63,991 nucleotides of DNA, filler included, from Octopus bimaculoides (GCF_001194135.2; 11 parts of 9 records of this genome joined end to end with filler, not necessarily neighbours in it); one strand, 5' to 3'; positions 1,922-13,530 are shown, counted from the first letter of the whole stretch. The notes: generated by a model not told the origin, from the letters alone. Numbers and translations: made by a program.

Positions 1922-1966
1922 GTCGTTGGCAAGTGTTTCTAGCTCAATAGCCGTCATCAGAACGAC
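1922..1966 (-). ncRNA. Minimal type I hammerhead ribozyme, degenerate at the cleavage triplet
   Basis: Minus RNA: GUCGUU-CUGAUGA-C-GGCU-auug-AGCU-A-GAAA-C-acuu-G-CC-AACGAC. Helix I is a perfect 6 bp; U16.1 reads C. Confidence 0.7.
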
Positions 1967-2589
1967 AATTGCCCGATCATATCTCCAGCAGCCAGATCTA
2001 AATGATTTGCACAAGACTTTAGTATTGGGTGGGGGTGGAAGAAAACTGTTAGGAAGAGGTACTGCTGGTGCATCAGAAGATTTTCTTGCTTACCAATCTA
2101 CCAAAGACCATGCTATTTCTTTTTCTGGTTTGCTTTCGATTTCATTTCTTTAAAGAACGAGCTGACATTATCAGCACCATACATTCCAATTCGCTTCGCT
2201 TTCATTCCTTCGAAGAAGGAGTTGATGTGCAGAGAGGGGTGGAGAATGAGGTATTTCTTGTATATTATTTTAGAGAAGTTGTACGCGTAGGGGACATTAT
2301 TTGAAGTATTATACAAGTATTATACAAGAAGAATGTGATATGTCGTGAGGGGAAGGGTGGGGAGCGTTTCGGTTACATATATAGATATACTTACATTCGC
2401 TCTATTATGACAAAGCTTAAAGAAAGCGTGTGAAATTTGGATTAATTTTGTTTTTATCTGTTGTTTGCTGTATTTCATTATTTGCACCTCCTCTTCATTA
2501 AAAAAAAATTTAACTACTGAGGATTTTAACGCGAATGCCAAGATATATCTGTGAATAAACGTACCTATGTAAAAAGATACCGTTTCATC

Positions 2590-2621
<32 letters not shown>

Positions 2622-2721
2622 NNNNNNNNNNNNNNNNNNNNNNNNNNNNNNNNNNNNNNNNNNNNTTAATTAATTAANNNNNNNNNNNNNNNNNNNNNNN
2701 NNNNNNNNNNNNNNNNNNNNN
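2622..2721. other. Assembly linker 44N+TTAATTAATTAA+44N (first of 10 copies)
   Basis: Same 100-bp construct also starts at 5471, 15940, 31199, 33581, 40426, 49016, 55072, 60591 and 62836; the 12-mer gives stops in all six frames. Confidence 0.95.
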
Positions 2722-2735
2722 ATATATATATATAT

Positions 2736-2826
2736 CATTTAAAATACTTCATTTAAAGTACATTTAAAATACATTCATTTAAAATACATTATTCATTTAA
2801 AATACATTTAAAATACATTTAAAATG
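2736..2826. repeat. AT-rich minisatellite, unit about CATTTAAAATA
   Basis: About seven degenerate copies read directly. Confidence 0.8.
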
Positions 2827-2944
2827 AATTTTAAAAGAATAATATATAGTTTATTGACTGATTTTTATTCTTGCTAGACCACTGGTGATAAACTAAATTT
2901 CTATAATTTTTTTGCTACCCTATAATTTATTAATATTAATTTAT

Positions 2945-2990
<46 letters not shown>

Positions 2991-3064
2991 TCATTAACTG
3001 ATCAGAATTAATTGACTAACATGGATTATATTAACTTTTTAGGCGTGATGAGTAAAAAGTGTAA

Positions 3065-3137
<73 letters not shown>

Positions 3138-3334
3138 TGTATGCATAAATGTGTTTATATATTAATGTATTCATGCATGTATATGTATATATACGTATAT
3201 GCATGGATATGTGTGTATATGTGGATGTATGCATATTTGTGAGTATATGTGTGTATGTGCATGTGGGTATATGTATGTGTGTATACGTATATGTGCATAC
3301 TTGCATATATACAAATTTTCATAACTTTATTTAT

Positions 3335-3590
3335 CTATCTATCTATATATCTAAAGATGAGAATGTGTGTGTGTCCCCGTCTGTTTGTCTGTCTGTGTGA
3401 ATCCCTAAAACTCGAGAACTACACAACCGATTTCATTCAAATTTTACACAAGCCTCTCTTAGAGTCCATGTAGTGTCATAGGCCCAAAAAATTTTCAACT
3501 TCTTACCTAATGCAAGCCCAGAGCGGTGTCAAAAGTGAAAAATAACATCTCTCTAGTGTAATATCAGATACTTTCACTTTAATACTTTCA
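3335..3590 (+). mobile_element. Non-autonomous Helitron/HINE-like fragment
   Basis: TCTATATATCTAAAG start, short (GT)/(CTGT) tract and AAAACTCGAGAACTACACAACCGATTTCATTCAAATTT resemble invertebrate non-autonomous Helitrons; no 3' CTAG end seen. Confidence 0.45.
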
Positions 3591-3594
3591 CTAT

Positions 3595-4022
3595 TGTCGT
3601 CTCCTTCATTGGACATGAAACTCAGCTTGCAAAGACCTGTTGGGGCAAGCGAAAGCGAAATCGTGATGGCACCTGTGTCCAGCGTCGCTTTCCTAGCACT
3701 TGTGCCAGTGGCACGTGTAAGACATTCGAACGAGATCGTTGCCAGTGCCACTGGACTGGCTCCTGTGCAAGTGGAACATAAAATACACCATTTTGAGTGT
3801 GGCCGTTGCCAGTATCGCCTGACTGGCCTTCATGCCGGTGGCACATAAAAGCACCCACTACACTCTCAGAGTGGTTGGCGTTAGGAAGGGCATCCAGCTG
3901 TAGAAACTCTGCCAAATCAGATTGTAGCCTGGTGTAGCCATCTGGTTCTACCAGTCCTCAGTCAAATTATCCAACCCATGCTAGCATGGAAAGCGGACGT
4001 TAGACGATGATGATGATGATGA
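3595..4022 (+). mobile_element. 3' part of a non-autonomous retroposon with RTE-type tail
   Basis: Three degenerate ~60-bp internal repeats (TGCCAGTGGCAC...TAA), then GGTTGGCGTTAGGAAGGGCATCCAGC and the tail GGACGTTAGAC(GAT)n. Confidence 0.7.
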
Positions 4023-11560: not shown

Positions 11561-11607
11561 ACACACAGACCCGGGTTTCTGGGTAGTAACCCGTCGTCAG
11601 TGTGTGC
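11561..11607 (-). ncRNA. Minimal type I hammerhead ribozyme, apparently intact
   Basis: Minus RNA: GCACACA-CUGACGA-C-GGGU-uacu-ACCC-A-GAAA-CCCGGG-UC^-UGUGUGU. 7-bp helix I, 4-bp helix II, palindromic helix III ACCCGGGU, GUC triplet. Confidence 0.85.
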
Positions 11608-11759
11608 TAATCATGAGTTAGTGATGAAAACTCATTCCGCACGCAAAATACTGCTTTTTCCGGTGACAAACTGTCGCTGATCTCGAAAAAGGAGAAATAC
11701 GCAATATTAAATCGCTGACCGAGAAGTAAACAGTAGCAGTACGCAATCGTAAAATATAA

Positions 11760-11900
11760 TTGCCTTAGTCGAGCAAATCGATCCCAGAACTTATTTTTAA
11801 GCTTAATACTTACTCTATCGGTTTTTTTTGTCGAACCGCTAATTACGGGGACATAAACACATCAACACCGGTTCTTAAATGGTGATTAGGGAGACAAACA
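11760..11900 (-). mobile_element. SINE family A fragment
   Basis: TTAGTCGAGCAAATCGATCCCAG...GAACCGCTAATTACGGGGACATAAACAC matches copies at 19930, 23240, 31299. Confidence 0.7.
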
Positions 11901-12054
11901 CAAACCCAAAGGCTTACATACAGATACATGCATACATACATACATACATACATACATACACACACACATACATACAAATATACATACATACGCACATACG
12001 TACATTCATACACACATATATAATAATGATGATGATGATGATAATAATAATAAT

Positions 12055-12084
<30 letters not shown>

Positions 12085-12091
<7 letters not shown>

Positions 12092-12645
12092 GCTCGGATG
12101 CGGTACCAGGCAGTGGTTCTCATAGCTTCTGATTTTAATTGATTGGAAGTGTTATCATGTACATTGTTTTGTCTTGGTATAAAAGATGGGCTACAGCAAA
12201 TATTCTGCTCAATACCACAGATTTGCTTGTCAGTTGTTTGACCTTAACCAGTGGAGCATGTCCCTTGGTGGCTGACGATATGTGCATCTCTGATCATGAG
12301 CAGAAGTAGTGGAGGAGTATTATAGCCATGTGTTGAGAGGAATTCTTTGGAGTTTGAATAATTCACCTTTGGAAACATGGGTGTTTTGCTCAACATCCTT
12401 AAACAAACCTTATTCAGGGACCTTTTGAGCGTAATGGGCTACTCGATCTGAAGAAAATTCTAACTGGTACCCGCCTGCGAGGTCATGCGCTGTTTATCTT
12501 GATATGAGATCACCATGTCACACACATATTGTTGTGATGCATGTGCCTGGTGTACTCTTATCAGACGGGTAGTCATGATGGGTATAATGGGCTTCGTATA
12601 TTTTACCCCAGTGTCACTTTGATGGCATGCACTGCTCTCTCACGC
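12085..12645 (+). mobile_element. Retroposon 3' fragment ending in (AAT)n, inside an (AAT)n array
   Basis: About 560 bp of complex non-coding sequence with (AAT)n on both sides; superfamily not assignable from sequence. Confidence 0.55.
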
Positions 12646-12722
<77 letters not shown>

Positions 12723-12835
12723 TGATGATGATGATGATGATGATAATAAAGTATAACATTTAAAAAAATTTTTTATCAGTGGCCAGCATATAAAAAATAG
12801 ACTGATTAAAGTGAAATCGTATATATATTTATATT

Positions 12836-13345
12836 TAAGAGCATAGAAAAATTTCTAGCCTATATGCTGAAAATAGACGCTAAATCATCTAACCACTTTA
12901 AAAATCACAAAGTTATACACGCGTTGAAATCGAGAGAGTAAGCTAATGTTGGCCACCGATAAAATTTTTAAAAAAATTATCCTGTATACCATAATCAAAA
13001 AAATTTCTATTCACTTCGGGACAGCATATGTGCTGAGATAAGGTGTGAAATTTGTTATTGAAGGTATCTGGGGTATTTATACGCAGTTATGGCTTTGCGT
13101 TTGCTTTCCTGTGGGTGTGTATAAATATCTTATTTATTTCCTGTATGTATGCTCTACTGATGAGGAAAAGCCATTGGGCAAATCCAGAAATTAATTAATC
13201 CAGGGCTATCTGTATTGTTAATAATTCCCGTTAGCTTGTACCCTCGATTTCAACACGTGTGTAACTTTGTGATTTTGAAAGTAGTGAGACGATTTAGCGT
13301 CTATTTTTAGCATATAGGCTAGAAATCTTTTCTATGCCCTTGATT
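12836..13345. repeat. ~110-bp inverted repeat pair (12836-12945 and 13231-13345)
   Basis: GCATAGAAAAATTTCTAGCCTATATGCTG...GTAAGCTAA versus its reverse complement TTAGCTTG...GCATATAGGCTAGAAATCTTTTCTATGC; imperfect. Confidence 0.85.
13151..13206 (+). ncRNA. Minimal type I hammerhead ribozyme
   Basis: GCUCUA-CUGAUGA-GGA-aaa-GCC-auug-GGC-aaa-UCC-A-GAAA-UUAAUUAA-UC^-CAGGGC. Palindromic helix III AUUAAUUAAU; first pair of helix I is an A.C mismatch. Confidence 0.7.
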
Positions 13346-13346
13346 A

Positions 13347-13413
<67 letters not shown>

Positions 13414-13482
13414 GTTAAATAAAATGAGGCAACAAAGCCAAGGCTGTGTGTAATTTTCAGGACGTTTATATAGAGAAAGTTA

Positions 13483-13530
13483 GTCTTACAGGTGTTTCTG
13501 GGATATTAGGGGTATCCCTTCATCAGAGAC
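13483..13530 (-). ncRNA. Minimal type I hammerhead ribozyme
   Basis: Minus RNA: GUCU-CUGAUGA-A-GGGAUA-ccccuaa-UAUCCC-A-GAAA-C-accu-G-UA^-AGAC. Helix III ACACCUGU is one substitution from the palindrome ACAGCUGU. Confidence 0.78.

What the first reader, a model, noticed from the sequence alone, without database searches (positions are those of the whole stretch)
1922..13530. Four independent hammerheads share a non-canonical A directly before GAAA
Seen: the helix II/core junction reads C...A-GAAA (1922, 11561), A...A-GAAA (13483) and GGA...UCC-A-GAAA (13151), while helix II differs in each. Established: position 10.1-11.1 is normally a purine-pyrimidine pair, usually G-C. Inference: recurrence in four unrelated sequences suggests a lineage-specific core variant rather than decay. 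I cannot confirm from memory whether it has been described.
Basis: partly seen in the sequence, partly recalled or inferred. Interest (0 to 1): 0.72.

Follow-up and report, generated by a model that had tools for sequence, protein, structure and literature searches.

The report
Penelope hammerheads with loose helix junction
Four worn copies of jumping-gene ends, in what is likely an octopus genome, carry the letters of a small RNA predicted to cut itself, and the odd unpaired letter at its core is a real family trait but one already listed for such elements in Hydra, sea cucumber, a copepod and a green alga, so it is an ordinary known variant.

Summary
The four motifs are real minimal type I hammerhead sequences, each from a different multi-copy repeat family. 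The A before GAAA is inherited, not decay: 30/30, 36/36, 32/33 and 31/32 family copies. It is not lineage-specific, and it is neither fixed as A nor new. In hits not chosen for that letter, the 13483 family has A 14, G 10, U 4 of 28. The genome's commonest hammerhead class has no extra letter. A G–C pair follows the mismatch in most copies, so the letters can be read as published 'extra N10/N11' around a kept G10.1–C11.1, or as a mismatched 10.1·11.1 pair. Both readings are in print: a 2014 descriptor allows 'extra N11'; 15 of 25 Hydra-clade Penelope families have the double mismatch, and a Chara element has exactly C…A-GAAA; a natural U·U is reported. The 13483 family lies about 1.2–1.5 kb behind a Hydra-type endonuclease; the other three could not be tied to a protein. 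Cleavage is untested. Earlier scan notes found Penelope hammerheads elsewhere in this genome; none named this junction.

The parts
1922..1966 (-). H1: minimal type I hammerhead copy. C.A junction (1953/1940), 4-bp helix II; U16.1 changed to C at 1929, so this copy is likely dead
   Evidence: family of at least 39 matches
11561..11606 (-). H2: intact minimal type I hammerhead copy. C.A junction (11593/11580), G-C next, palindromic helix III, predicted cut between 11568 and 11567
   Evidence: 1274 first-look candidates
13151..13206 (+). H3: minimal type I hammerhead copy. Single A (13186) between the helix II G-C pair and G12, no 5' partner; the core-proximal pair of helix I is broken in this copy
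   Evidence: 136 first-look candidates
12821..12946 (-). Inverted copy of the H3 element's 3' tail (86% identical to 13231-13357): fold-back insertion layout of Penelope-like elements
13231..13357 (+). 3' tail of the H3 element downstream of the hammerhead
13483..13530 (-). H4: minimal type I hammerhead copy. A.A junction (13519/13499), 6-bp helix II, one change in the helix III palindrome, predicted cut between 13487 and 13486
   Evidence: 1716 first-look candidates
13531..13800 (-). Non-coding 3' region of the H4 element upstream of its hammerhead; longer genomic copies continue into a GIY-YIG endonuclease ORF
   Evidence: left end of the window copy approximate

Best explanation
The four motifs are minimal type I hammerhead sequences at the ends of four multi-copy repeat families that are likely Penelope-like retroelements (shown by a linked endonuclease for H4, inferred for H1-H3), and the letter before GAAA is likely a tolerated loose slot at the foot of helix II, not a new A-specific contact. 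Shown: each family inherits the junction; a G-C (or G-U) pair follows it in most copies; sister subfamilies fill the slot with A, G or U, or close it as A-U; helix III is a short palindrome. Inferred from published work on such ribozymes: two copies would pair through the palindrome to build helix III and cut slowly after H17, probably helped by the element's protein, to process the element's RNA. The slot would sit between the A9/G12 core pair and the first G-C pair and would lower rather than abolish activity. The window copies are decayed, 5'-truncated insertions; H1 is likely inactive.
For: Family trait: A before G12 in 30/30, 36/36, 32/33 and 31/32 kept copies (1, 3, 1 and 1 rows dropped as truncated or misaligned). 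It is also in 24 of 24 H2-type copies from loci chosen by their downstream tail (counted by eye; 15 other rows were loose non-family matches). Slot is variable: H4 cluster A 14, G 10, U 4 of 28; H2 cluster A 14, U 2 of 16. Next pair G-C or G-U in 44/52 H2-like and 51/54 H4-like copies. Fold kept through change: H3 helix III loops AGCT 7 and GATC 5 of 14, H2 CCGG 18 and TCGA 7 of 52; H3 helix II A-U changed to U-A in 4 copies (L107, L113, L114, L119). Element link for H4: GIY-YIG remnants colinear and 1.2-1.5 kb upstream in L250, L251, L270, with CxC-x5-C linker remnants, no CCHH, CxxC before the conserved E and CxH after the conserved N, as described for the Hydra clade. Two-copy loci are mostly inverted pairs: H1 1/1, H2 8/9, H3 5/5. 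In print: 'possible extra N11'; 15 of 25 Hydra-clade families unpaired on both sides, and Chara PLE-X1 with C...A-GAAA; natural U10.1-U11.1; slow dimer cleavage of PLE hammerheads; protein-assisted cleavage.
Against: A is the majority letter in all four families. Among genome-wide matches of this helix III class, 2393 of 5554 have A before GAAA against 712 with C, whereas the published Hydra-clade mismatches are 14 U.U and 1 U.C of 15. Some preference for a purine here is therefore possible. No protein could be linked to H1, H2 or H3; their apparent upstream extensions were inverted tails. Only H2 folds below its shuffles as a monomer (z -3.55), and none of the four minimum-energy folds is the complete hammerhead fold. 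I found no cleavage assay of a C.A, A.A or single-A junction in 9 searches.
Confidence: 0.83

Rival explanations
1. The A is a specific, selected core contact that arose in this animal lineage: an A stacked or paired at 11.1 replaces the Watson-Crick 10.1-11.1 pair.
For: Majority A in four families with different helix II. A before GAAA in 2393 of 5554 matches of this class, control 215 of 676. H3 keeps the A with no 5' partner in 12 of 14 copies. Published Hydra-clade mismatches are pyrimidines.
Against: G or U in 14 of 28 H4-cluster copies. Canonical families in the same genome: 14 of the 61 hits in clusters of three or more, and only 6 of the 100 listed rows of the most abundant class have A before GAAA (counted by eye). 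C...A-GAAA is listed for a Chara element; one AGAAA row among 56 and an Adineta row consistent with A...A appear in the 2014 supplement.
Confidence: 0.1
2. The extra letters disabled the ribozyme in the founding elements, and the motifs spread as inactive passengers, since retrotransposition does not need cleavage.
For: In an anole Penelope-like element, ribozyme mutants did not impair insertion in vitro. Naiad elements thrive without canonical hammerheads. U.U is reported as the best tolerated mismatch at this pair, so C.A and A.A should be worse.
Against: The catalytic letters are kept in all four families, and helix II and III change in ways that preserve pairing between subfamilies that all carry the junction. 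That is hard to explain without selection on the fold.
Confidence: 0.06
3. The four junctions are independent decay of single dead copies.
For: The window copies carry other private defects: H1 U16.1, H3 helix I, H4 helix III loop.
Against: The A is shared by 129 of 131 kept family copies and by copies chosen on other sequence.
Confidence: 0.01

Closest known systems
Hammerheads of Hydra-clade Penelope-like elements and Chara PLE-X1 (Craig et al. 2021, PMC8557442, File S2)
   Same: Type I, short self-complementary helix III, one unpaired letter on each side of the helix II base in 15 of 25 Hydra-clade families. PLE-X1_cBra reads C...A-GAAA with G-C behind. The H4-linked ORF shows the Hydra-clade endonuclease marks.
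   Different: Published Hydra-clade mismatches are U.U (14) or U.C (1) and are followed by U-A or C-G. Here they are mostly C.A, A.A or A.G followed by G-C. H3's A with no 5' partner has no row in that table.
Minimal hammerheads (min-HHR) of metazoan Penelope-like elements (Cervera and de la Pena 2014, PMC4209133)
   Same: Type I, predicted dimer through palindromic helix III, extra letter after A9, G-C closing helix II, opposite-strand pairs 100-700 bp apart; the descriptor allows an extra N11; 1 of 56 aligned motifs has AGAAA.
   Different: Their >80% consensus has no extra letter before GAAA, and no cephalopod is in their alignment.
Natural U10.1-U11.1 core variant (Perreault et al. 2011, PMC3088659)
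   Same: A natural mismatch at the first helix II position next to the core.
   Different: U.U rather than C.A or A.A; reported as a rare variant, not a repeat-family trait. That survey rejected untested mispairs at this position from its final alignments.

Membership tests
Type I hammerhead ribozyme | Core C3 U4 G5 A6 N7 G8 A9 and G12 A13 A14 A15 | tested here: met
   All four window copies; each core letter in at least 25 of 30, 33 of 36, 28 of 33 and 30 of 32 family copies
Type I hammerhead ribozyme | Helices I, II, III around the core with open ends in helix I; A15.1-U16.1 and H17 | tested here: met
   3 of 4 window copies pass a strict descriptor; H1 has lost U16.1 but most of its family keeps it
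Type I hammerhead ribozyme | Strict consensus: Watson-Crick pair directly between A9 and G12 (N10.1-N11.1) | tested here: not met
   C.A, C.A, A.A and single A. Published exceptions exist, so this excludes only the strict consensus
Type I hammerhead ribozyme | Self-cleavage 3' of H17 | not testable with these tools
   No assay possible
Minimal hammerhead of Penelope-like elements | Short helix III with palindromic sequence (dimer design) | tested here: met
   Loops CCGG/TCGA, AGCT, AGCT/GATC, ACGT in the families
Minimal hammerhead of Penelope-like elements | Extra nucleotide after A9 followed by G-C | tested here: met
   H1, H2, H4 have it; H3 lacks the extra 5' letter in 12 of 14 copies but keeps G-C in 11 of 14
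Minimal hammerhead of Penelope-like elements | Lies at the 3' end of an RT/GIY-YIG element | tested here: inconclusive
   Met for H4 (L250, L251, L270); no ORF link found for H1-H3
Minimal hammerhead of Penelope-like elements | 5'-truncated copies and inverted end copies | tested here: met
   Median shared upstream 105-282 nt; 14 of 15 two-copy loci of H1-H3 are inverted; window IR 12821-12946/13231-13357
Hydra clade of Penelope-like elements (H4 element) | C-terminal GIY-YIG endonuclease without the CCHH motif | tested here: met
   One cysteine only between the two halves of the motif in L248, L250, L267; weak NCBIfam group I intron endonuclease hit, E 2.5e-4, below cut-off
Hydra clade of Penelope-like elements (H4 element) | CxCX5C linker; CxxC and CxH beside the conserved E and N | tested here: met
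   Each linker cysteine is seen in at least one of three decayed copies, none with all three; CxxC in L250, L251, L267, L270; CxH in L248, L250
Hydra clade of Penelope-like elements (H4 element) | RT motifs RWK and DKT; placement in the RT tree | not tested
   No N-terminal RT of the H4 element was recovered
Metazoan non-LTR retrozyme | Tandem head-to-tail units each with a hammerhead (feature recalled; paper seen only as a search listing) | tested here: not met
   1 of 15 two-copy loci of H1-H3 is tandem; H4 belongs to an endonuclease-coding element

The most novel reading that the evidence does not exclude
In this lineage several Penelope-type hammerhead families have converged on a purine wedged between helix II and G12. 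H3 shows it needs no 5' partner, so a single A between C11.1 and G12 would be an active core insertion that I did not find described, possibly a rate brake that the element's protein relieves.
Probability: 0.12. Interest if true: 0.42.

Novelty: new member of a known kind. Interest (0 to 1): 0.16.

Why it matters
Modest. It adds four families to a known group of relaxed-junction hammerheads and warns that descriptors demanding a 10.1-11.1 pair miss thousands of genomic copies (about 2,200 above control with A in one helix III class alone). The natural series C.A, A.A, A.G, U.U, A-U, single A and plain G-C in one genome is a ready panel for measuring how much the helix II junction matters to cleavage. 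It does not reveal a new ribozyme class or a lineage-specific core.

Tried and rejected
Rfam: no hammerhead match in the window at E up to 1, and none at gathering score in 6 loci including 2 canonical ones; uninformative. Monomer minimum-energy folding does not give the hammerhead fold, as expected for a dimer design, so it was not used as support. Idea that the extra letter always goes with the longer palindromic helix III: rejected, since three clusters with that helix III are canonical. Attempts to link H2 and H3 to an ORF through upstream sequence returned inverted tails only; H1 had too little shared upstream sequence. The endonuclease next to an H4 copy in L081 belongs to another family with no convincing hammerhead downstream in 30 loci, 7 of which had under 750 nt to scan. 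Sequencing runs: no RNA holder listed. Raw RNA reads of a coded organism, mostly under 95% alike, cover H2- and H4-like sequence in both directions at similar depth with no pile-up of ends at the predicted cuts; they come from other copies and cannot show or exclude cleavage. Papers not held: Lunse et al. 2016 on PLE hammerhead variants and a second paper looked up by a DOI recalled as Arkhipova et al. 2017; either may describe or assay this junction. Nine literature searches showed no assay of C.A, A.A or single-A junctions.

Full report
Observation. The four junctions are in the sequence as described. Each is a complete type I hammerhead layout: helix I, CUGANGA, helix II, one A, GAAA, a short helix III with a four-letter loop, the cleavage triplet, helix I. 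A strict descriptor allowing an optional extra letter on either side of helix II finds H2, H3 and H4 in the window; H1 fails only because U16.1 is C. In 200 dinucleotide shuffles the mean is 0.04 hits and the maximum 1. H1 lies on G000:C13 and H2-H4 on G000:C11. Rfam reports no hammerhead here but also misses canonical minimal ones from this genome. The genome is probably an octopus: a near match to the hammerhead tabulated for an octopus element is listed at G000:C2:19342447.

Not decay. Each motif belongs to its own dispersed family (39, 1274, 136 and 1716 first-look candidates). In alignments of the best copies, excluding the window copy, the letter before G12 is A in 30 of 30, 36 of 36, 32 of 33 and 31 of 32 (6 of 137 rows dropped as truncated or misaligned). 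These copies were picked by likeness to the window, which favours A. In loci picked by the downstream tail instead, 24 of 24 H2-type copies still have A (counted by eye). The window copies do carry private damage elsewhere: H1 U16.1, H3 first pair of helix I, H4 one loop letter.

Not fixed, not genome-wide. A pattern that leaves the junction free (core, then GAAA-C-N4-G-UH) has 5554 matches against 676 in the reversed control; 2393 have A before GAAA (control 215) and 712 have C (control 122). I parsed 98 distinct hits from the loci of the first 100 listed; 61 fall in six clusters of three or more. Three clusters (28, 16, 3) have the loose junction and three (5, 5, 4) pair directly at that position, nearly all G-C or G-U. 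In the H4 cluster the 3' letter is A 14, G 10, U 4; in the H2 cluster A 14, U 2, the latter opposite A. The shorter class (GAAA-SS-UH) has 14533 matches against 4002. Its listed rows are dominated by one family with an extra 5' A and G-C directly before GAAA; 6 of 100 rows have A there (by eye). H3-type motifs are not caught by these patterns.

Which numbering. In 44 of 52 H2-like and 51 of 54 H4-like copies a G-C or G-U pair follows the mismatch, and H3 usually has no 5' partner (12 of 14). This fits the published scheme of a kept G10.1-C11.1 with an extra letter on each side. Sequence alone cannot decide between them; either way it behaves as a loose slot.

What carries them. Searching with the far upstream part of the H4 element gave 30 loci. 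In L250, L251 and L270, GIY-YIG remnants lie on the same strand 1.2-1.5 kb upstream of the hammerhead. These and sister loci show no CCHH, remnants of a CxC-x5-C linker, CxxC before the conserved E and CxH after the conserved N, which are the marks given for the Hydra clade. Library support is weak (NCBIfam group I intron endonuclease, E 2.5e-4, below cut-off). H1-H3 could not be tied to an ORF. They share the helix III design, short 5'-truncated copies and inverted pairs (14 of 15 two-copy loci; window 12821-12946 against 13231-13357) that are described for Penelope-like insertions. Their assignment is inference. If all four descend from one clade, they are not independent origins.

Mechanism. 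Shown: the anatomy, the family inheritance, the variable slot, and structure-preserving changes between subfamilies that all keep the junction (helix III loops AGCT and GATC in H3, CCGG and TCGA in H2; A-U changed to U-A in H3 helix II). These changes suggest selection on the fold while the families diversified. Inferred from papers: such motifs cleave weakly and as dimers, and one needed the element's protein. A natural U.U at this position is reported, with U.U the best tolerated mismatch. I therefore expect slow, dimer-dependent, possibly protein-assisted cutting after H17, with the slot lowering the rate. None of this was tested here.

Literature seen. Cervera and de la Pena 2014 (PMC4209133): main text parts 1-3 of 4 and the whole supplement PDF as text. 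[quoted passage not shown] Craig et al. 2021 (PMC8557442): passages, section 11 and File S2. By my count 15 of 25 Hydra-clade families are unpaired on both sides (14 U.U, 1 U.C; two share one motif), and PLE-X1_cBra has C...A-GAAA. Perreault et al. 2011 (PMC3088659): passages and section 8. Passages only: PMC11167929, PMC6765202, PMC6155905, PMC11014351. Lunse et al. 2016 was not held. Hammerhead numbering and the role of the A9/G12 pair are recalled.

Verdict. A real and correctly read feature, inherited by family, but a known relaxed junction of Penelope-type hammerheads rather than a new lineage-specific core. What remains open is small: the purine bias in these families and the partner-less A of H3, for which nine searches showed no assay.

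Noticed in passing
G000 genome-wide; e.g. L221, L229: One canonical minimal hammerhead family dominates the genome: the short helix III class has 14533 matches against 4002 in the control. No copy of it was found in the window.
   Followed up: partly
L210:2000-2400: Two canonical hammerheads of one family lie head to tail 355 nt apart, like a retrozyme-type tandem unit.
   Followed up: no
L081 and L276-L305: Another Penelope-type family (RT plus GIY-YIG) shows no convincing standard hammerhead within up to 1.5 kb behind its endonuclease in 30 loci. In L081 an H4 element sits between its RT and endonuclease parts.
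   Followed up: partly
window:11440-11490: A 50-nt part of the H2 element's 3' tail is shared with much more abundant sequences; read depth is about five times that over the hammerhead in three RNA runs.
   Followed up: no
window:40528-40950 (+): 141-codon open frame with a DKG motif, resembling the start of a Penelope-type reverse transcriptase (motif named; no Pfam hit).
   Followed up: partly
G000:C2:19342447-19342488: Near match to the published octopus Hydra-1 element's hammerhead, without an A before GAAA.
   Followed up: no
window:15374-15545: Imperfect inverted repeat, 71% over 174 bases.
   Followed up: no
window:5671-9322: Several 120-180 codon open frames, some resembling a non-LTR retrotransposon reverse transcriptase region (resemblance recalled, not searched).
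   Followed up: no
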